Source: a bacterium (GTDB lineage Bacteria; Sysuimicrobiota; Sysuimicrobiia; Sysuimicrobiales; Segetimicrobiaceae). Taken from it: DNA of 64,000 bases. Position 1 is the first letter of the stretch; every line of letters starts with the position of its first letter. This document shows positions 9,839 to 59,365 of the stretch, one piece after another. The stretch covers positions 4,855 to 68,854 of the forward strand of contig DASYZR010000166.1 of assembly GCA_035945995.1 (NCBI GenBank), read 5' to 3'. Under the pieces are notes generated by a model that saw nothing but the letters and a program-made list of their open reading frames with translations, searched no databases and was not told the origin of the DNA. The position numbers and the translations under genes are program-made.

Positions 9839-11134
9839 CTACGCATCGTCGACCACGCGGATGACGTTCCGGACGGCGCTCACGACCTCGAGCGCTTCGA
9901 TGCGCCGCAGCACGCGCCGCATCTGGCCCTCCCGCGCCGTGTGGGTGATCATCACGATGTCGGCGCTCGTCCCGCGGCTCTTCTGCGAGATCGCCGAGAT
10001 GCTGACGCCTTCTTCGCCGAAGATCGTCGCGATGCGGGCGAACACGCCGGGGCGGTCCGTCACCTGCATCAGCAGGTAGAACGGCGTCTCCACGTCGTCC
10101 ATCGGCCGCAGCGGGCGCGGTTCGAGCGCCTCCCATCCGACGCGGCCGTGGCCTCCGGAGGCGTGATTGCGCGCCACGTCGACGAGATCCCCGACGACGG
10201 CGCTCGCCGTGGGATCGCCGCCCGCGCCGCGGCCGACGATCATCACTTCGCCGGCGGCGTCCCCGCGCACGAAGACGGCGTTCAGCTCGTTGCGCACGGC
10301 GGCGAGCGGATGCGCGCGGGGCAGGAACGCCGGGTGGACGTGCGCTTCCACGCGGCCCTCGTGCTCGCGCGCGATCGCCAGGAGCTTGAGCACGTAGCCG
10401 AGCTCGGCGGCGTACTGGATGTCCTGCGCCGTGACGCGCGCGATGCCCTCCCGGTACACGTCGTCGGCGTGGAGCGGCGTGTGGAACGCGATCATCGCCA
10501 GAATGGCCAGTTTCGCCGCGGCGTCGTGGCCCTCGACGTCGTCGGTCGGATCGGTCTCGGCGAAGCCCCGGCGCTGCGCGTCCTCGAGCGCCCCGCCGAA
10601 CTCCGAGCCCCCTTCGGCCATCCGCGTCAGGATGTAGTTCGTGGTGCCGTTGAGGATGCCGGTCACTTCCTGGATGCGGTTGGCGGCGAGCGACTCCTTG
10701 AGCATCTGGACCACCGGCACGCCGGCGCCCACGCTCGCTTCGAGCCGCAGATCGACGCCCGCCCGGGCGGCCGCGGCGAAGAGCTCCGGGCCGTGCCGCG
10801 CAATCAGCTGCTTGTTGGCCGTGACCACGTGCTTGCCGTGCTCGATCGCGTCGAGGAGCAGGGTGCGCGCCGGCTCGAGCCCGCCGATGACCTCGACGAC
10901 GACGTCGATCGCCGGATCGGCGACGACCGCCGGCCCGTCGTCCGTGAGGACCCCGGGATCGAAGACGAAGCCCCGGGGCCGGTCGGGGCGCGCCACCGCG
11001 ACGCGCGCGAGCCGCAGCGTCGCCCCGGTCCGGCGCCTGATCTCCGCGCCGTTCGTGCGGAGCAGCCGGACGACCGCGCCGCCCACGGTTCCGCAGCCGA
11101 GCAGGCCGACGGCGACCCCCTCCGGGCGGGTCAC
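9839..11134 (-). CDS. hom: homoserine dehydrogenase
   Basis: C-terminal 431 aa of ORF 9839..11983: VGLLGCGTVGG Rossmann motif, catalytic domain and C-terminal ACT domain. GTG start overlaps the dapA-like stop as GTGA. Confidence 0.85.
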   Translation of the reverse strand: MTRPEGVAVGLLGCGTVGGAVVRLLRTNGAEIRRRTGATLRLARVAVARPDRPRGFVFDPGVLTDDGPAVVADPAIDVVVEVIGGLEPARTLLLDAIEHGKHVVTANKQLIARHGPELFAAAARAGVDLRLEASVGAGVPVVQMLKESLAANRIQEVTGILNGTTNYILTRMAEGGSEFGGALEDAQRRGFAETDPTDDVEGHDAAAKLAILAMIAFHTPLHADDVYREGIARVTAQDIQYAAELGYVLKLLAIAREHEGRVEAHVHPAFLPRAHPLAAVRNELNAVFVRGDAAGEVMIVGRGAGGDPTASAVVGDLVDVARNHASGGHGRVGWEALEPRPLRPMDDVETPFYLLMQVTDRPGVFARIATIFGEEGVSISAISQKSRGTSADIVMITHTAREGQMRRVLRRIEALEVVSAVRNVIRVVDDA

Positions 11135-12324
11135 GGCGCGGCGCCCCCCGTCTGCGCGGGGCCTCGAGGCCGGGCGGCGCCCACGCCCAGCGTCCACAGC
11201 CCGCGCCGGAGCGACCGCCGCTCGTCCTCGGTCAGCGGCAACGCCGGCGGGCGGGTCGTCGCGTGGCGGATCAGCCCGGCGATGACCATCGCTTCCTTCA
11301 CGACCACGAAGGCCGGCGCGTCCACGGCAAAGAGCTGCGGGATCGCGGCGAGCGCCCGCGCGCGCTCGGCGGCGTCGCCGAGGCGCCCGTCCCCGACGCC
11401 GCGGTAGATTTCGACCAGCGGATCGGGCGCGAAGTTGGCCGTGCCCGGCACCGCGCCGTCCCCGCCCAGCAGCAGGGTGTTGAGCAGATGGTAGTCCATG
11501 CCGCACAGCACGACGAAGTCGGGCCGCGCCGGCCGCACCGCGGCGATGATCTCCTGGATGTGGGCGATGCTGTCGATCGTGTCTTTGATCCCGGCGATGT
11601 TGGCGTGGTCCTGGGCCAATTTCAAAACCACCCGCGCGGGGATGCTGCGGCCGGTGAGCGCCGGGAAGTTGTAAATGTACACTGGGAGGCGCGTCCCCAC
11701 GGCCAGGAGCCGGAAGTGCTCGTGGATCGACCGGTCCGAGGCAATCCAGTAATACGGCAGGACGCAGGCGGCGCCGGCCGCCCCGATCTCCTCCGCGTGC
11801 TCGGCGTAGGCGACGGCTTCCTCGGTCCACGGACTCCCGCATCCCACGAGCACCGGGACGCGGCCGCGCGCGGTGCGCACGACGAGCTCGGCGAGCGCGC
11901 GCCGCTCCTCGCGCGACAGCGAGGTGAACTCTCCGGTCGTGCCGAGCGCCAGGAGCCCGTGCACGCCGTGCGCGATGAGCCACTCGACGTGCCGGACGTT
12001 GGCGTCCTCGTCGATCCGGCCCCGCTCGTCAAAGAGCGTGGGGATCGGGACGACGATCCCCGCGACGCCCTTCCCGGCGGCGCTACCCGGGTCGGCGGCC
12101 GGCCGCCGCTGGGCGGCAAGAAACTCGTGCACGAGCGCTTCGGCGTCGCCGGCCCGTTCGTCCGGGACGAGCAGGTCCCCCCAGACGCCGGTCGCCTTTT
12201 CCAGGACCTGCCCGTAGCCCGGCACCTGCCTGGAGCGGAGGACGACCGGAATGCCGGCCTGCTCCAATAGACCCTGGAGCATCAGCGCCTCGACCTCATC
12301 GCCGGCGGTATGGATGGCCTTCAT
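11131..12324 (-). CDS. DUF2007 domain fused to a 4-hydroxy-tetrahydrodipicolinate synthase family protein (DapA-like)
   Basis: N-terminal MKAIHTAGDEVEALMLQGLLEQAGIPVVLRS matches the DUF2007 signature. Followed in frame by DapA motifs (LALGTTGEF, GIKDT active-site Lys, VLPYYW). The ATG overlaps the rsmI stop as ATGA. Confidence 0.75.
   Translation of the reverse strand: MKAIHTAGDEVEALMLQGLLEQAGIPVVLRSRQVPGYGQVLEKATGVWGDLLVPDERAGDAEALVHEFLAAQRRPAADPGSAAGKGVAGIVVPIPTLFDERGRIDEDANVRHVEWLIAHGVHGLLALGTTGEFTSLSREERRALAELVVRTARGRVPVLVGCGSPWTEEAVAYAEHAEEIGAAGAACVLPYYWIASDRSIHEHFRLLAVGTRLPVYIYNFPALTGRSIPARVVLKLAQDHANIAGIKDTIDSIAHIQEIIAAVRPARPDFVVLCGMDYHLLNTLLLGGDGAVPGTANFAPDPLVEIYRGVGDGRLGDAAERARALAAIPQLFAVDAPAFVVVKEAMVIAGLIRHATTRPPALPLTEDERRSLRRGLWTLGVGAARPRGPAQTGGAAP

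Positions 12325-22641: not shown

Positions 22642-22645
<4 letters not shown>
20594..22645 (+). CDS. glgE: alpha-1,4-glucan:maltose-1-phosphate maltosyltransferase
   Basis: Classic GlgE signature ([52 protein letters not shown]). 683 aa. Confidence 0.92.
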
Positions 22646-26127
<3,482 letters not shown>

Positions 26128-55385: not shown

Positions 55386-56615
55386 ATGCGACAGGGTATG
55401 CGCGCGGTGGTAGGCGCGCTGATCGTGCCGGTGCTGTTGTTTGCGCTCGTCACGCCAGGCCGGCCGGCGGCAATGCCGGAGATCAAGATCGGTGCCGTCC
55501 TGCCGCTGACCGGCGCGTTCGGATCATCCGGCGGGTATTTCAAGCAGGGCTATACCCTGGCGATCGACGACGTCAACAAGGCCGGCGGCCTCGCGGTCGG
55601 ATCGCAGAAATACCGCCTGACCCTCGTCATCCTCGACGACGGCAGCGACGGCACGCGCTCGCGCAGCCTGGTCGAGAAGCTCGTCACCGACCAGCACGTG
55701 AACTTCCTGCTCGGCGGTTACGATACGTCGCTCGTCGAGGCTCAAGAGGTCGTGCCCGACCAGTACAAGATCCCCTACGTCGAGGGCGGCGGCGCGGCGT
55801 CCTCGATCTTCAAGCGCGGCTATAAGTACATCTTCGGGACCCTGGCGACGGTCTACGATCTCGGCGCGATCACGATGAACTTCATCTCGGCTCAGATCGC
55901 GGCCGGACACCTGCCGAAGCCGCTCACGATCGCCGCGGTGTGGGAGAATACGGACCACGGCAAGGACTACATCGACGCGATCACGGATCAGGCGAAGGCG
56001 CACCCGGATCTGTTCAAGGTCGTGCTCAATCAGTCGTTCCAGCTCAACGGCAGCGACTTTTCGCCGCTGCTGCAGCAGGTCAAGGCGTCGAACGCGGCGG
56101 CGTTCCTCTCCGACGCGCACCTGCCGGATTTCATCACGATGCACCGCCAGTATCTCCAGGCCGGCCTCTACCACCAGTTCGTGTCGTACGGCGCGCGCGG
56201 GCCGGATCAGAAGGGCCGGCAGGCGCTCGGGCCCGGCGCCGACTATCTCGTCGCGGGGCTGTGGTGGACCCCCGCCCTCAAAGACCCGGCGTCGCAGCTG
56301 TTCACGGAGCGGTGGACGAAGGAGTATCACGTGACCCCGGACTGGTTCCAGGCGCTCGCGTTCGAAACGGCCCGGGCGCTGCTCGCCGGCATCGGCCAGG
56401 CCGGCGCGGTGGACGGCCCGAAGGTCCGCGACGCGCTCGCGCATCTTGTGCTGCGCTCGATGCTCCCCGGCGGCGTGATCAAGTTCCAGCCGAACGGCCA
56501 GGTGGCGACGCCCTACGTGATGGTGCAAAACATGCCCGGCAACACGGTGCGGATCATCTGGCCCCGGAACCTGCCGGAGACGCGGGCGGCGCTTCTGCCG
56601 ATGCCGAAGCCGTAG
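55386..56615 (+). CDS. branched-chain amino acid ABC transporter substrate-binding protein (LivK/LivJ family)
   Basis: Signal peptide and a periplasmic-binding-protein type I fold (IKIGAVLPLTGAF..., FLLGGYDTSL). Confidence 0.9.
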   Translation: MRQGMRAVVGALIVPVLLFALVTPGRPAAMPEIKIGAVLPLTGAFGSSGGYFKQGYTLAIDDVNKAGGLAVGSQKYRLTLVILDDGSDGTRSRSLVEKLVTDQHVNFLLGGYDTSLVEAQEVVPDQYKIPYVEGGGAASSIFKRGYKYIFGTLATVYDLGAITMNFISAQIAAGHLPKPLTIAAVWENTDHGKDYIDAITDQAKAHPDLFKVVLNQSFQLNGSDFSPLLQQVKASNAAAFLSDAHLPDFITMHRQYLQAGLYHQFVSYGARGPDQKGRQALGPGADYLVAGLWWTPALKDPASQLFTERWTKEYHVTPDWFQALAFETARALLAGIGQAGAVDGPKVRDALAHLVLRSMLPGGVIKFQPNGQVATPYVMVQNMPGNTVRIIWPRNLPETRAALLPMPKP

Positions 56616-56637
56616 CCCGGCGCTCGCCCGGCGCGAG

Positions 56638-57519
56638 GTGTTCACCGCTCAAAACCTGATCTCGATCTGCATCACGTCGATTTTGACGGCGGGCCTGTAC
56701 GCGGTCATGTCGTACGGTCTCGCCATCATTTACGGCGTCATGAAGGTCATCAACCTCAGCAACGCGGGTTTTCTCATGCTCGGGAGCTTCATGGCGCTCG
56801 TCTACTTCCAGGCGTGGCACCTCGATCCGATCGCCGGTGCGTTTCTCAACATGCCGCTCTTCTTCGCCGCCGGCTGGCTCGTGTACGTGGCGCTGGTGCG
56901 GCGCGTGCGCCAAGCGCTCCCGATCGCGTCGCTGCTCATGCTGTTCGGGCTGTGGCTCGTGCTGCAGAACACCGCGCTCGCGGTGTGGGGCAGCGAAGAC
57001 CAGTCGATCATCACGCGGTACACCTACAAGGCGCTGCCGTTCTTCGACTTTCGGGTCGCGTTGACGCGGCTCGTGGTCTTCGCCGTCGCGCTCGCCGTGA
57101 TGGCGGTGCTCCATGTCCTGATCAACCACACCTACGTCGGCAAGGCGCTGCGGGCGACCGTGCAGGACCCGCAGGCCGCGCTGCTCGCCGGCATCGACAC
57201 GGAGCGGATCAGCGCGCTCGCCTTCGGCGTCGGCACCGCCTTCGCCGGGTTCGCCGGCGGCCTCATGACCCTGCTGTTCAGCTTCACCCCCGACTTCGGC
57301 GCCCCGTTTCAGTTGAAGAGCTTCACGATCATCGTGCTCGGCGGGCTCGAGAACCTCGCCGGCGTGACGGTCGGGGCGGCGATCCTGGCGTTCGCGGAGT
57401 CGTTCGCGGTGCTCTTCATGCGGGCCAGCTTGCAGAACGTCGTCGCCTACGCGCTCCTCGTCGTCGCGCTCATCGTCATGCCGGGCGGCGTCGCCTCGCT
57501 GTTCGGGCGGCGCTCGTGA
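56638..57519 (+). CDS. livH: branched-chain amino acid ABC transporter permease
   Basis: LivH-like 8-TM permease. GTG start. Confidence 0.9.
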   Translation: MFTAQNLISICITSILTAGLYAVMSYGLAIIYGVMKVINLSNAGFLMLGSFMALVYFQAWHLDPIAGAFLNMPLFFAAGWLVYVALVRRVRQALPIASLLMLFGLWLVLQNTALAVWGSEDQSIITRYTYKALPFFDFRVALTRLVVFAVALAVMAVLHVLINHTYVGKALRATVQDPQAALLAGIDTERISALAFGVGTAFAGFAGGLMTLLFSFTPDFGAPFQLKSFTIIVLGGLENLAGVTVGAAILAFAESFAVLFMRASLQNVVAYALLVVALIVMPGGVASLFGRRS

Positions 57520-58613
57520 CCCCGTCTGACGCGGGGCGGGCGGCCCCGTCTGACGCGGGGCGGACGGCCCCGTCCGGCGCGGGGCCGCGGATCCGCCCGG
57601 CGGCGTTTGCGGCCCCGGCCCTCGGGATCGCGCTCGCGCTGGTGCCGGTCTTCGCCCCGCGGAACATCACGCTGCTGAACCTCGGGTTCTTCACGTTCCT
57701 CTACGTCGCCCAGGGCCTCGCCTGGAACATCCTCGGCGGGTTCGCCGGGTACGTGTCGTTCGGCTACGCCGCGTTCTTCGGGCTCGGCGCGTACACCACC
57801 GCGCTCTTGTGGCTCGGCGGCTGGACGCCGGTGCTGACGTTTCCCCTCGCCGGCCTCGTCGCCGCGGCGTTCTCGCTGGTCGTGGGCGTGCCGACGCTGC
57901 GGTTGGCCGGGCCCTACTTCTCGATCGCCACGATCGGCGTCGGCGAGGCGATGCGGATCCTGATGCTCAACCTCGACCGGTTCACCGGGGGCGCCTCCGG
58001 GCTCAATCTGCCGACGGTCGTGCCGTCCAAGGCGTGGTTCTATCTCGCGGCCCTGGTCATGGCGGCGGTCGCCTACGTCACCGCGACGTGGATCCGCGGC
58101 TCGCGATTCGGCCTCGGGCTGGCGGCGCTGCGGATGGATCTGGAGGCCGCGGAGACGCTCGGCGTCCGCACCGCCTTGTTCAAGAATGTGGCGCACGTGA
58201 TCAGCGCGTTTCTCGTGGGCGTCTGCGGCGGCCTCTTCGCGACCTATTTCCAGTACCTGCACCCCGACACCGTCTTCAGCTTCACGGAGAGCATCAGTCT
58301 CGTCCTGATCGCCCTCATCGGCGGCCTGGGGACGATATGGGGACCGATTCTCGGCGCCGCGGTGTTCTACGCGGTGCAGGACTACCTGCAGACCTCGTAC
58401 CCTACGTTTCACCTGCTGGCCTACGGCGTGCTGCTGATCGTGATCCTGCTGTTCGAACCGCGGGGCCTCGCCGGGCTGGCGGCGCGGCTCTGGGGGCGAC
58501 GGCGGGCCCCGGTCCCCATAGCGGTGGCGCCGCCGCTGCCCGGGATGATTGCTCCGCCATCGGCGGCCGCCGCCGTGCCCGGCGAAACCGGAAGCCACGA
58601 GCGGCCGGCATGA
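57516..58613 (+). CDS. livM: branched-chain amino acid ABC transporter permease
   Basis: LivM-like permease. GTG start overlaps the livH stop as GTGA. The N-terminal tail is encoded by tandem 21-24 bp repeats. Confidence 0.85.
   Translation: MTPSDAGRAAPSDAGRTAPSGAGPRIRPAAFAAPALGIALALVPVFAPRNITLLNLGFFTFLYVAQGLAWNILGGFAGYVSFGYAAFFGLGAYTTALLWLGGWTPVLTFPLAGLVAAAFSLVVGVPTLRLAGPYFSIATIGVGEAMRILMLNLDRFTGGASGLNLPTVVPSKAWFYLAALVMAAVAYVTATWIRGSRFGLGLAALRMDLEAAETLGVRTALFKNVAHVISAFLVGVCGGLFATYFQYLHPDTVFSFTESISLVLIALIGGLGTIWGPILGAAVFYAVQDYLQTSYPTFHLLAYGVLLIVILLFEPRGLAGLAARLWGRRRAPVPIAVAPPLPGMIAPPSAAAAVPGETGSHERPA
57520..57590. repeat. three tandem copies of a GC-rich hairpin unit GCCCCGTCTGACGCGGGGCGG (variants), embedded in the livM 5' coding region
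   Basis: Seen directly in the sequence: CCCCGTCTGACGCGGGG twice, then CCCCGTCCGGCGCGGGG. Each unit is a 5-bp stem (CCCCG/CGGGG) with a 7-nt loop. Confidence 0.7.
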
Positions 58614-59365
58614 CGGAGTCGCTCGTGCTGGAGCACGTCACCGTGCGGTTCGGCGGGCTCGTGGCCGTGGACGCCGTCAGTGTGGCGGTCGAACCCGGCA
58701 AGATCACCGGCCTCATCGGCCCGAACGGCGCCGGCAAGACGACGATCTTCAGCGTGATCAGCGGCCGGCTCCGCCCGACCGCCGGCCGGATCGTGGCGTT
58801 GGGCCGCGACATCACCGGCTGGTCGCCGCACGCGGTGTGCCGGCACGGCGTGTGCGTGACGCATCAGATCGTACGCCCGTTCGCCGACCTCTCCGTGCTG
58901 GAGAACGTCATGGTCGGCGCCGCGTTCGGCGGCGGCGCCCGCGTCGAGGCCCGGTCGGTGCAGACGGAGGCGATGGCCGTGCTCGAATTCGCCGGGCTGG
59001 CGGCGCGCGCCGATCTGCCCGCCGCGTCGCTTACCCTGGCGCAACGCAAGCGCCTGGAGATCGCCCGGGCGCTCGCGACCCGGCCGGCGGTCCTGCTGCT
59101 CGATGAGGTCCTCGCCGGCCTGACCCCCGCCGAAGTCGCGCAGGCGGCCGGACTCGTGCGCCAGATCTCGGCCCGCGGCACCACCATCGTGATGATCGAG
59201 CACGTGATGCACGCGGTGATGAATCTCTCGCACCGCGTGCTGGTCCTCAACTACGGCCGGCTGATCGCCGACGGGACGCCCGCCGAGGTGACCGGGAACC
59301 CCGAAGTGATCGAAGCCTATCTCGGCGTCGGCGCGCAGACGGGAGAGGAGCCCCTGCATGACTGA
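58610..59365 (+). CDS. livG: branched-chain amino acid ABC transporter ATP-binding protein
   Basis: Walker A GPNGAGKTT, signature and Walker B motifs. The ATG overlaps the livM stop. Confidence 0.9.
   Translation: MTESLVLEHVTVRFGGLVAVDAVSVAVEPGKITGLIGPNGAGKTTIFSVISGRLRPTAGRIVALGRDITGWSPHAVCRHGVCVTHQIVRPFADLSVLENVMVGAAFGGGARVEARSVQTEAMAVLEFAGLAARADLPAASLTLAQRKRLEIARALATRPAVLLLDEVLAGLTPAEVAQAAGLVRQISARGTTIVMIEHVMHAVMNLSHRVLVLNYGRLIADGTPAEVTGNPEVIEAYLGVGAQTGEEPLHD

What the first reader, a model, noticed from the sequence alone, without database searches (positions are those of the whole stretch)
57516..57600. Triple tandem hairpin repeat forms the N-terminal tail of LivM (locus 2)
The sequence GTGACCCCGTCTGACGCGGGGCGGGCGGCCCCGTCTGACGCGGGGCGGACGGCCCCGTCCGGCGCGGGGCCGCGG encodes VTPSDAGRAAPSDAGRTAPSGAGPR before the first TM helix of the permease. 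Tandem amplification inside an essential transporter gene suggests replication slippage or element duplication that is tolerated because the tail is cytoplasmic and disordered. The copy number is likely variable between strains.
Basis: seen in the sequence. Interest (0 to 1): 0.5.

Follow-up and report, generated by a model that had tools for sequence, protein, structure and literature searches.

The report
Dispersed hairpin repeat translated into permease
Three head-to-tail copies of a 24-base GC-rich hairpin unit sit directly after the stop/start overlap of two transporter genes and are read as a floppy extra N-terminal tail of the second protein; the unit belongs to a dispersed, copy-number-variable repeat family of the REP/MIRU kind, notable mainly because almost the same unit turns up in very different bacteria.

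Summary
Window 57516-57590 holds three 24-nt units, each a 17-nt hairpin CCCCGTCYGRCGCGGGG plus a 7-nt spacer. They start right after the GTGA livH-stop/livM-start overlap.

The array is most likely translated. The GTGA overlap is conserved in all six orthologous loci read, and no canonical start lies between the array and the conserved first helix. AlphaFold2 models residues 1-28 as low-confidence coil.

Copy number varies. A 99.2-99.6% identical soil contig carries one unit, and three other assemblies break inside the array.

It is not a private slippage product. The same unit, also with period 24 and also beginning GTGACCCCGTCT, forms the N-terminal tail of TreS at 22642. A single inverted copy lies at the DHDPS-like/hom GTGA junction at 11146. 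Database scans found the unit in Chloroflexota, Aminicenantes, Acidobacteria and other MAGs. There it occurs as period-23 intergenic arrays or as period-24 in-frame arrays inside real genes, with unit-step copy-number differences between samples.

Six arrays start exactly after a TGA stop codon. One unit is nested in another unit's loop, again after TGA.

Verdict: a REP-like hairpin minisatellite, analogous to intragenic REPs, RPEs and MIRUs. It is a new variant of a known kind and of moderate interest.

The parts
56638..57519 (+). livH-like permease gene (293 aa). Its TGA stop at 57517-57519 overlaps the livM start.
   Evidence: ORF. Pfam PF02653 E=2e-38. The identical protein is found on 4 other contigs.
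57516..57518 (+). GTG start codon of the livM-like gene, part of the GTGA stop/start overlap
   Evidence: A 4-nt RTGA overlap is present in all orthologous loci read: L005, L006, L007, L008, L082, L083. No ATG/GTG/TTG lies in frame before GTG 57642, which is inside helix 1.
57520..57543 (+). Unit 1: hairpin CCCCGTCTGACGCGGGG (57520-57536) plus spacer CGGGCGG
57544..57567 (+). Unit 2: hairpin CCCCGTCTGACGCGGGG (57544-57560) plus spacer CGGACGG
57568..57591 (+). Unit 3: hairpin CCCCGTCCGGCGCGGGG (57568-57584) plus degenerate spacer CCGCGGA
   Evidence: Units 2 and 3 are missing (48 nt) from the one-unit allele L002.
57516..58613 (+). livM-like permease gene (365 aa). Residues 1-25 are encoded by the array. 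Helix 1 spans residues 29-41.
   Evidence: Pfam PF02653 over residues 54-310. LivM subfamily match below the cut-off. AlphaFold2 secondary structure and pLDDT. P44 is invariant and L40 and A41 are at least 90% conserved in 50 homologues.
22642..22693 (+). Second array of the same family. GTGA is the overlap of the glgE stop with the treS GTG. It is followed by two 24-nt units, CCCCGTCTTCGCGGGG+CGGTTCGG and CCCCGTCTTCGCGGCG+TGAGTCCC, read as [17 protein letters not shown] at the TreS N-terminus.
   Evidence: TRF period 24. Sequence. ORFs. GlgE Pfam match. The TreS equivalog domain starts only at residue 51. No in-frame start lies between 22642 and the domain.
11146..11161 (-). Single family unit (+ strand CCCCGTCTGCGCGGGG) in inverted orientation relative to transcription. 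It lies inside the C-terminal tail of the DHDPS-like gene, 12 nt upstream of the GTGA overlap with hom (11131-11134).
   Evidence: The Pfam DHDPS domain ends at residue 384 of 407. The sequence is identical in another soil assembly, L084.

Best explanation
The segment is a three-unit, head-to-tail array of a 24-nt GC-rich hairpin unit: [A/G]CCCCGTCT-loop-CGCGGGG followed by a CGGNCGG-type spacer. The unit belongs to a dispersed, REP-like repeat family.

The array lies immediately 3' of the TGA stop of the livH-like gene. That TGA overlaps the GTG start of the livM-like gene (GTGA), so the array is read as codons 2-25 of the permease. The result is a disordered, probably cytoplasmic N-terminal extension in front of the first transmembrane helix. 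This is inferred, not shown by protein data.

A unit is 8 codons long and has no stop in this frame. Gain and loss of units by slipped-strand mispairing or unequal recombination therefore stays in frame. This explains the 1-, probably 2- and 3-unit alleles in near-identical strains.

The sequence is constrained at the nucleic-acid level, not as a peptide.

The likely consequence at RNA level is an inference. A GC-rich structure starting 5 nt after the start codon should make livM initiation depend on ribosomes terminating at livH, which unwind it. That would tighten or tune translational coupling. Otherwise the array is probably neutral passenger DNA.

How units reach new sites is unknown. The recurrent junction TGA|CCCCGTCT, including one unit nested in another unit's loop, suggests insertion 3' of TGA(C).

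Translation:
- The RTGA overlap is conserved in six orthologous loci.
- Orthologues start V/M-T-x-x-R-x-R-P-A at that codon.
- No canonical in-frame start exists before GTG 57642, which lies inside the conserved helix 1.
- The 48-nt difference in L002 keeps the frame.

Family membership, not local slippage:
- A second period-24 array also begins GTGACCCCGTCT, at glgE/treS.
- A single inverted unit lies at the DHDPS-like/hom GTGA junction.
- 14 genome loci and 59 metagenome stretches match the two-unit pattern.
- Positions the pattern did not fix are still conserved over 40 unit types: the first loop base is T in 34/40, the spacer starts with G in 36/40 and ends with CG in 34/40.

Nucleic-acid-level constraint:
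- Units are read in both orientations and in different frames, and they also occur intergenically.
- The codon TCT occurs 3 times in 6847 codons of window genes, yet twice in each array.
- GC2 is 0.88 in the array against 0.48 in the genes.
- G+C is 0.86 in the array against 0.65-0.72 in the flanks.

Frame preservation:
- Loop plus spacer length is 8 (period 24) in 68 of 79 unit pairs, with 3-nt loops paired to 5-nt spacers.
- All 39 arrays my crude rule called coding have period 24.
- Period 23 occurs only in low-GC arrays not called coding; three are intergenic on inspection.

Arrays inside real genes:
- They sit in tails, linkers and loops of FtsK, NuoF-like, tricorn-like, PNP, urocanase, POR and GFO/IDH/MocA proteins.

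Copy-number variation:
- This locus has 1 unit against 3 at 99.2-99.6% identity.
- Other loci show 6/5/4, 3.9/2.0, 2.4/3.4 and 2.1/2.8 units.

TGA junction:
- Six arrays start right after the TGA stop of an upstream coding-like ORF, five of them at RTGA overlaps.
- L076 carries a nested unit after TGA.

Disordered tail:
Against: - There is no protein, ribosome-profiling or transcript evidence, so translation of the array is inferred from start-codon logic only.
- Folding energies are not better than shuffles (z -1.2, -1.1, +0.5), so a structure-based function is not supported thermodynamically.
- The one-unit allele comes from a short-read metagenome assembly that could have collapsed the repeat. 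Its 11 SNPs show it is a different haplotype, but reads were not examined.
- Relative to the empty orthologous junctions, the one-unit allele is +12 nt, not +24. The original insertion therefore cannot be reconstructed.
- The pattern fixed 16 of 24 unit bases, so the cross-phylum picture is an ascertained sample, and MAG taxonomy labels may be wrong.
- The bias towards TGA could reflect which insertions survive rather than which targets are chosen.
Confidence: 0.7

Rival explanations
1. Purely local event. Replication slippage amplified a short native stretch of the livM 5' end, with no relation to sequences elsewhere.
For: The array is tandem, and copy number differs between strains. The native orthologous sequence GTGACCGCCGTC resembles the 5' arm GTGACCCCGTC. 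Slippage is certainly how the unit number changes.
Against: The same unit with the same 24-nt period and the same GTGACCCCGTCT start occurs at glgE/treS, 35 kb away. A single copy lies at 11146. Dozens of arrays with the same unit occur in other genomes, and positions the search pattern did not fix are conserved among them.
Confidence: 0.07
2. The array is not translated. livM starts downstream at a non-canonical codon, for example ATC 57591. The array would then be an intercistronic RNA element, such as a REP-like stabiliser, a processing site or an attenuator of livM expression.
For: Di Nocera et al. 2013 argue that many REPs annotated at ORF N-termini are really extragenic. Starting at I26 would give I-R-P-A-A-F-A-A-P, which mimics the short tails of the orthologues. 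GC2 and codon usage in the array are not coding-like. Intergenic arrays of the family sit 3' of genes.
Against: No ATG, GTG or TTG lies between the array and helix 1. The GTGA start is conserved in all orthologues. The array and all observed length variants keep the frame open. Elsewhere the family is unavoidably translated, inside FtsK, NuoF-like and PNP genes. The period is held at 24 by compensating loop and spacer lengths.
Confidence: 0.13
3. The repeat encodes a functional peptide module, such as a selected disordered linker or regulatory tail, and is conserved at protein level.
For: It is in frame and lies in tails and linkers of many proteins. APS-x-x-G-R-T-like peptides recur.
Against: The same DNA unit is read in at least three frames and on both strands, giving APSARGG, PPRADGAA, RPAQTGP and GPVCAGRC. 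It also occurs in non-coding DNA with period 23. It is absent from all LivM orthologues. It uses the rare codon TCT.
Confidence: 0.04
4. Assembly artefact, or a degenerate CRISPR array or terminator.
For: Three Logan contigs break inside the array. The hairpin core resembles type I-E CRISPR repeat stems; this rests on my memory only. GC-rich hairpins at gene ends can be terminators.
Against: The junction and first unit are identical in five independent assemblies. There are no spacers, since the period is 24 with a 17-nt hairpin. Rfam gives no hit, CRISPR-DR families included. There is no T-tract and no terminator-like site. The array lies inside an operon with overlapping genes.
Confidence: 0.02

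Closest known systems
REP elements, including intragenic REPs (GTAG- and CGTC-tagged superfamilies; Di Nocera, De Gregorio & Rocco 2013, PMC3733652)
   Same: Both are short GC-rich palindromic units present at many sites. Most lie just 3' of ORFs between unidirectional or convergent genes. REP termini can abut or supply stop codons. Some copies lie inside ORFs in frame, often at the N-terminus, encoding 20-80 extra residues. For CGTC REPs no dedicated transposase is known. The present unit contains an invariant CGTC at the foot of a stem.
   Different: The stem is 5-6 bp, against 8-9 bp in CGTC REPs. There are no A/T pairs at the stem base and no CCA tail. The CGTC is partly paired. The organisation is head-to-tail arrays with a fixed 23/24-nt period, whereas head-to-head dimers predominate in REPs and head-to-tail dimers are described as negligible. 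Nearly the same unit is seen in several phyla.
MIRU-VNTR of the Mycobacterium tuberculosis complex (Supply et al. 1997, as summarised in PMC2734929)
   Same: Both are tandem units scattered over the genome and located between genes of operons. Copy number is polymorphic between isolates. A proposed role is differential translation within polycistronic operons. From my own knowledge of Supply 1997, MIRUs carry small ORFs whose ends overlap the neighbouring stop and start codons.
   Different: MIRU units are 40-100 bp and restricted to mycobacteria. They are not simple hairpins and form separate mini-ORFs. Here the unit is 24 nt and is fused in frame to the downstream protein.
Rickettsia palindromic elements (RPE; Ogata et al. 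2000, cited in PMC3733652)
   Same: Both are palindromic selfish repeats inserted in frame into protein-coding genes and translated. N-terminally decorated proteins are reported to be expressed.
   Different: RPE-1 is about 100-150 bp. RPEs are single insertions rather than short-period tandem arrays, and they are specific to Rickettsia.
Translationally coupled ATGA/GTGA gene overlaps
   Same: The array sits exactly at such an overlap. The overlap itself is conserved in the orthologues.
   Different: Ordinary overlaps carry no repeat. Here the downstream coding sequence begins with a structured repeat.

Membership tests
CGTC-tagged REP superfamily (Di Nocera 2013) | Unpaired CGTC (or TGTC/CCTC) tetranucleotide at one end of the palindrome | tested here: inconclusive
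   CGTC is invariant in the unit (CCCCGTCT). However, its first one or two bases belong to the stem in either pairing register (definition).
CGTC-tagged REP superfamily (Di Nocera 2013) | Stem of 8-9 bp with complementary A/T in the first two positions, a loop of 4-5 nt, and a CCA tail | tested here: not met
   The stems are 5-6 bp and all G/C, the loops are 5-7 nt, and there is no CCA tail (definition).
CGTC-tagged REP superfamily (Di Nocera 2013) | Predominantly head-to-head dimers, with head-to-tail dimers negligible | tested here: not met
   All arrays are head-to-tail with period 23 or 24.
GTAG REP / REPIN-RAYT systems | GTAG tag, inverted REP doublets, and a RAYT (Y1 transposase) gene flanked by REPs | tested here: not met
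   There is no GTAG and no inverted doublets. The transposase part is a weak test, and whole genomes were not available.
REP-like elements in the broad sense | Short palindromic unit, multiple dispersed copies in a genome, mostly at 3' ends of genes or at gene junctions | tested here: met
   There are three loci in 64 kb, all at GTGA junctions. Several loci occur per MAG or sample: W167, UBA2199, Ga0207416. Intergenic arrays lie 3' of genes.
MIRU-VNTR | 40-100 bp units in Mycobacterium, within intercistronic regions, with variable copy number | tested here: not met
   The unit is 24 nt and the host is an unclassified soil MAG. Only the intercistronic position and the variable copy number are shared.
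Rickettsia palindromic elements | Rickettsia-specific 100-150 bp palindromic insert in frame within ORFs | tested here: not met
   The unit is 24 nt and tandem, and the host is different. In-frame residence in ORFs is shared.
CRISPR array | Repeats separated by unique spacers of about 30 nt, with cas genes nearby and an Rfam CRISPR-DR match | tested here: not met
   Period 24 leaves only a 7-nt conserved spacer. Rfam gives no match at gathering score or at E<=10. No cas genes were found among the window ORFs scanned.
Intrinsic terminator | GC-rich stem-loop followed by a T/U tract at the end of a transcription unit | tested here: not met
   No terminator-like site was found in 56600-58700. The array lies between overlapping genes of one operon.
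LivM (high-affinity branched-chain amino acid permease) | BPD_transp_2 (PF02653) permease scoring above the NCBIfam LivM cut-off, in a livJHMGF-type operon | tested here: inconclusive
   PF02653 matches at E=2.5e-30. NF008450 LivM scores 132.5 bits against a cut-off of 366. The operon order is SBP-permease-permease-ATPase-ATPase. The protein is a HAAT-family LivM-like permease whose substrate has not been established.

The most novel reading that the evidence does not exclude
The unit defines a previously undescribed family of 23/24-nt hairpin elements shared across phyla. The elements would be actively inserted, by an unidentified ssDNA or HUH-type or other machinery, immediately 3' of TGA(C). 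Targets would include TGA stop codons at RTGA stop/start overlaps and the TGA in their own loop. The elements would then expand as minisatellites. The 24-nt form would be a stop-free 8-codon cassette that can colonise coding sequence in either orientation, adding disordered tails and linkers to housekeeping proteins.
Probability: 0.3. Interest if true: 0.7.

Novelty: new variant of a known kind. Interest (0 to 1): 0.5.

Why it matters
- For annotation: repeats of this kind sit exactly on start codons. They break short-read assemblies; three contigs end inside this one. They also make N-termini and gene lengths unreliable.
- For biology: this shows how a selfish or neutral nucleic-acid element can add polymorphic disordered tails and linkers to ordinary proteins without breaking them. 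Here those proteins include a permease, TreS, FtsK and a NuoF-like protein.
- If the TGA-adjacent insertion is real target choice, the family offers a tractable case for how REP-like elements without a known transposase move.
- The 24-nt against 23-nt contrast is a clean natural example of reading-frame selection acting on a repeat period.
- The arrays would also be usable strain-typing (VNTR) markers in uncultured soil and sediment lineages.

Tried and rejected
- Rfam found nothing credible at gathering score on the whole window, or at E<=10 on the array and on a 23-nt array.
- The window has no tRNA or tmRNA.
- The terminator and promoter scans found none.
- Folding against shuffles was not significant, so I dropped any claim of exceptional stability.
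- Scans of viral contigs with the exact 23-nt dimer and with the general two-unit pattern gave no hits. A phage vector is therefore unsupported.
- A full-text literature search for the unit sequence on both strands found no paper.
- Exact-product look-ups for the window's GlgE and for LivM starting at GTG 57516 were not on record. Copy number at the treS array could therefore not be compared between samples.
- The TreS homologue search only showed that the N-terminal tail is not conserved.
- Taxonomic placement failed. The source is an NCBI 'MAG TPA [bacterium]' contig of 71.5 kb, and the nearest named taxa are only 59-69% identical in ThrC.
- Reconstruction of a clean empty site failed. The N-terminal tails of the orthologues have diverged, and the one-unit allele is +12 nt, not +24.
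- No second liv locus exists in the window.
- My automatic coding / non-coding call is crude. It labels both window arrays 'unclear' because they straddle two genes.
Full report
**1. The observation**

Window 57516-57590 reads GTGACCCCGTCTGACGCGGGGCGGGCGGCCCCGTCTGACGCGGGGCGGACGGCCCCGTCCGGCGCGGGGCCGCGG, exactly as quoted. In the frame of the downstream gene it translates to VTPSDAGRAAPSDAGRTAPSGAGPR.

Tandem Repeats Finder gives period 24, 3.5 copies and score 75 for 57507-57589. This is the top score among its 53 rows for the window. The repeat finder places three copies in register at 24-nt spacing. The 17-mer hairpin core is exact twice and has two mismatches in the third unit.

Each unit is a 17-nt hairpin (CCCCG / CGGGG stem) plus a 7-nt spacer (CGGGCGG, CGGACGG, CCGCGGA). 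The G-run of one unit can equally pair with the C-run of the next. The array therefore has alternative folds, and the predicted MFE is one nested hairpin.

Neither RNA nor DNA folding is significantly better than dinucleotide shuffles (z = -1.2 and -1.1). This is unsurprising at 86% G+C. The tandem repeat is real. The hairpins are real but not thermodynamically special.

**2. Gene context and whether the array is translated**

The operon encodes, in order:
- a substrate-binding protein (55386-56615);
- a livH-like permease (56638-57519);
- a livM-like permease (57516-58613);
- two ATPases.

Both permeases are PF02653 proteins. They fall below the curated LivH/LivM equivalog cut-offs, so 'LivM-like HAAT-family permease' is the safe name. 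Nothing supports 'essential'.

The livH stop TGA overlaps the GTG at 57516 (GTGA). The same 4-nt RTGA overlap is present in all six orthologous loci whose DNA I read: L005, L006, L007, L008, L082 and L083. Orthologues without the repeat begin V/M-T-x-x-R-x-R-P-A at that codon.

No ATG, GTG or TTG lies in frame inside or after the array until GTG 57642. That codon is inside the first helix, which spans residues 29-41 in the AlphaFold2 model. P44 is invariant and L40 and A41 are at least 90% conserved among 50 homologues.

Unless a non-canonical codon such as ATC 57591 is used, the whole array is therefore translated. AlphaFold2 models residues 1-28 as coil with pLDDT 51-68. The tail carries four Arg and two Asp, which by the positive-inside rule suggests a cytoplasmic location (inference).

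**3. Variation at this locus**

The identical LivH protein is found on four other contigs.
- L002 (forest soil) is 99.2-99.6% identical to the window over 2.3 kb and differs by 11 SNPs. It carries only one unit, an in-frame 48-nt difference.
- Three Logan contigs (99.2-99.7% identical) all end 30 nt after the livH stop, inside the repeat. In them unit 1 is followed by the spacer CGGACGG rather than CGGGCGG, as expected for a two-unit allele.

The caveat is that short-read assemblies can collapse repeats.

Orthologues at 54-88% identity to the window's protein lack the unit. Their tails are short (6-12 residues) or carry other insertions. L006 has a different hairpin and direct-repeat insert, and L005 yet another. 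This junction is a permissive hotspot.

**4. It is not a private duplication**

Two more loci of the same family lie in the window.

At 22642, the glgE stop/treS start overlap is again GTGA. It is followed by two 24-nt units, CCCCGTCTTCGCGGGG+CGGTTCGG and CCCCGTCTTCGCGGCG+..., read as [16 protein letters not shown]. The TreS equivalog domain begins only at residue 51. There is no other in-frame start. TreS homologues have unrelated tails, mostly of 6-29 residues.

A single unit, CCCCGTCTGCGCGGGG, lies at 11146. It is in inverted orientation, inside the C-terminal tail of a DHDPS-family protein and 12 nt from its GTGA overlap with hom. It is identical in a second assembly.

All three family loci of the window thus lie at GTGA junctions.

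**5. The family elsewhere**

A two-unit pattern, CCCCGTC N2-3 CGCGGGGC N5-6 GCCCCGTC, found 14 loci in the species-representative genomes. It found 59 stretches in JGI metagenomes and none in viral contigs.

Two genome hits look like chance: a native IlvE motif and an alphaproteobacterial singleton. The rest are tandem arrays of 2-6 units. Their hosts, as labelled in the records, are:
- Anaerolineae and Chloroflexia;
- Ca. Aminicenantes;
- Acidobacteria;
- a 'Clostridia' MAG;
- Streptomyces, with more divergent units.

Locus G+C ranges from 0.49 to 0.75.

The pattern fixed 16 of 24 bases, so this is an ascertained sample. Even so, the unfixed positions are conserved over 40 distinct unit types:
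- the first loop base is T in 34/40;
- the spacer begins with G in 36/40;
- the spacer ends with CG in 34/40.

I therefore treat it as one sequence family and leave its cross-phylum spread unexplained.

**6. Nucleic-acid-level constraint, with the reading frame respected**

The same DNA unit is read as APSARGG(A/T), GPVCAGRC or PRLRGAVR on one strand. On the other strand it is read as PPRADGAA, RPAQTGP or RTAPRRRG. It also occurs in non-coding DNA.

In the window the arrays use TCT. This codon occurs 3 times in 6847 codons of the window's genes but twice in each array. GC2 is 0.88 in the array against 0.48 in the genes.

Loop and spacer lengths compensate so that the period is 24 in 68 of 79 unit pairs. 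All 39 arrays that my crude composition rule calls coding have period 24. Period 23 occurs only in arrays from loci of 49-62% G+C that the rule does not call coding (L012, L015, L020, L070, and two units in L009). On inspection of ORFs, L009, L012 and L015 lie 3' of genes, partly between convergent genes.

Pfam shows the in-ORF arrays sit in genuine proteins, in tails, linkers or loops:
- the FtsK linker;
- a REC-kinase linker;
- the N-terminal part of a tricorn-like protease;
- inside the Complex1_51K domain of a NuoF-like protein;
- the end of the PNP domain match;
- the N-terminal tails of urocanase, POR-alpha and a GFO/IDH/MocA oxidoreductase.

**7. Minisatellite behaviour**

Orthologous sites in different samples differ by whole units:
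- 6, 5 and 4 units in the FtsK linker, giving open frames (stop to stop) of 813, 805 and 797 codons;
- 3.9 against 2.0 units;
- 2.4 against 3.4 units;
- 2.1 against 2.8 units.

**8. Where arrays begin**

Of about 69 array left ends, 7 are preceded by TGA and 22 by A. In six cases that TGA is the stop codon of an upstream ORF with coding-like composition. In five it is an RTGA stop/start overlap, so the array becomes codons 2 onward of the next protein. Those proteins are LivM-like, TreS, urocanase, POR-alpha and GFO/IDH/MocA, all beginning M/V-T-P-S.

In L076 a complete 24-nt unit is inserted into the loop of another unit, directly after its TGA. For livM, the GTGAC is present in the empty orthologous junctions, so it was there before the insertion.

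This pattern fits insertion 3' of TGA(C). It could also be survivorship, since such sites tolerate inserts. I could not find a transposase (a weak test). I also could not rebuild a clean empty site, because the one-unit allele is +12 nt relative to the empty orthologues.

**9. Mechanism**

Shown:
- a dispersed hairpin unit;
- tandem arrays that vary by unit steps;
- residence in frame at a conserved stop/start overlap;
- no alternative canonical start.

Inferred:
- translation into a disordered cytoplasmic tail;
- expansion and contraction by slipped-strand mispairing;
- tolerance, because a terminating ribosome at the livH TGA covers and unwinds the first hairpin (positions +5 to +21 from the start). 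livM would then be initiated mainly by coupling, and unit number could tune that;
- otherwise, a neutral passenger.

Unknown: how units reach new sites, and why the unit is shared across phyla.

**10. Comparison with known systems**

The closest descriptions are REPs, including intragenic and N-terminal REPs and REP ends that abut stop codons (Di Nocera et al. 2013, PMC3733652). The unit contains an invariant CGTC. It nevertheless fails the defining features of the CGTC families: an 8-9 bp stem with A/T at its base, a CCA tail and head-to-head dimers.

It works like MIRU-VNTRs: intercistronic, polymorphic, and possibly affecting differential translation within operons (PMC2734929). It also works like Rickettsia RPEs, which are translated in-frame palindromic inserts. 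By size, sequence and host it is a member of neither.

It is not a CRISPR array, a terminator or any Rfam family. No paper in the library contains the unit sequence.

**11. Verdict**

The finding is an instance of a REP-like hairpin minisatellite that is translated at a gene junction. That makes it a new variant of a known kind.

The locus itself is of modest interest. Three features of the family raise it to moderate interest (0.5):
- the unit shared across phyla;
- the 24 against 23 period contrast;
- starts adjacent to TGA, with one nested insertion.

Noticed in passing
window 22642-22693: A second array of the same 24-nt unit (two copies) starts at the GTGA overlap of the glgE stop and the treS start. 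It encodes [16 protein letters not shown] at the N-terminus of a TreS-maltokinase fusion whose conserved domain starts at residue 51.
   Followed up: yes
window 11146-11161 (minus-strand genes): A single unit in inverted orientation lies inside the C-terminal tail of a DUF2007+DHDPS protein, 12 nt before its GTGA overlap with homoserine dehydrogenase. It is identical in a second soil assembly (L084).
   Followed up: yes
L076 3161-3260 (Ga0207416_1000072): One complete 24-nt unit (CCCCGTCTCCGCGGGGCGGGACGG) is nested in the loop of another unit, directly after its TGA. The whole array starts at the GTGA start codon of a GFO/IDH/MocA oxidoreductase. It looks like a genuine insertion event.
   Followed up: partly
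L006 4628-4760 and L005 10001-10090: Orthologous livH/livM junctions in relatives carry different inserts at the same place. L006 has a TCCTCCCC/GGGGAGGA hairpin and a 20-nt direct repeat. The junction is a hotspot for unrelated hairpin or repeat insertions.
   Followed up: partly
L001 4665, L003 1832, L004 1081 (contig ends): Three independent Logan contigs all terminate exactly 30 nt after the livH stop, inside the repeat. The array breaks k-mer assemblies, so copy number in such data is unreliable.
   Followed up: partly
L015 5623-5741, L020 80-137, L012 7793-7861, L070 933-1016: Loci of 49-62% G+C (three from Anaerolineae or Chloroflexia MAGs, one an unlabelled metagenome contig) carry the same unit with a 23-nt period (GCCCCGTCTGCGCGGGGCGAACG, up to 5.2 copies). 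Where I checked ORFs (L012, L015, L020) the arrays lie in intergenic DNA 3' of genes, and L015 lies between convergent genes. No Rfam match was found.
   Followed up: partly
L036 / L043 / L048 (same FtsK gene in three sediment samples): The FtsK linker holds 6, 5 and 4 units respectively, giving open frames (stop to stop) of 813, 805 and 797 codons. A further single unit lies about 70 nt upstream. This is a clean unit-step VNTR inside a housekeeping gene.
   Followed up: yes
P0006 C-terminus; window 58476-58503: A close LivM homologue ends in a different tandem peptide repeat (PPAPREPG x3) at the livM/livG junction. The window has a weak period-14 repeat in the same C-terminal tail, which AlphaFold2 also models as disordered (residues 330-365).
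   Followed up: no
window as a whole: The source is an NCBI 'MAG TPA [bacterium]' contig of 71.5 kb (ThrC 100% identical). The nearest named taxa are only 59-69% identical in ThrC, so the host is an unclassified soil lineage with 70.6% G+C. The window carries thr genes, a GlgE-TreS-GH57 glycogen/trehalose cluster and peptide ABC transporters. No transposase appeared among the 20 further ORFs scanned for a gene map.
   Followed up: partly
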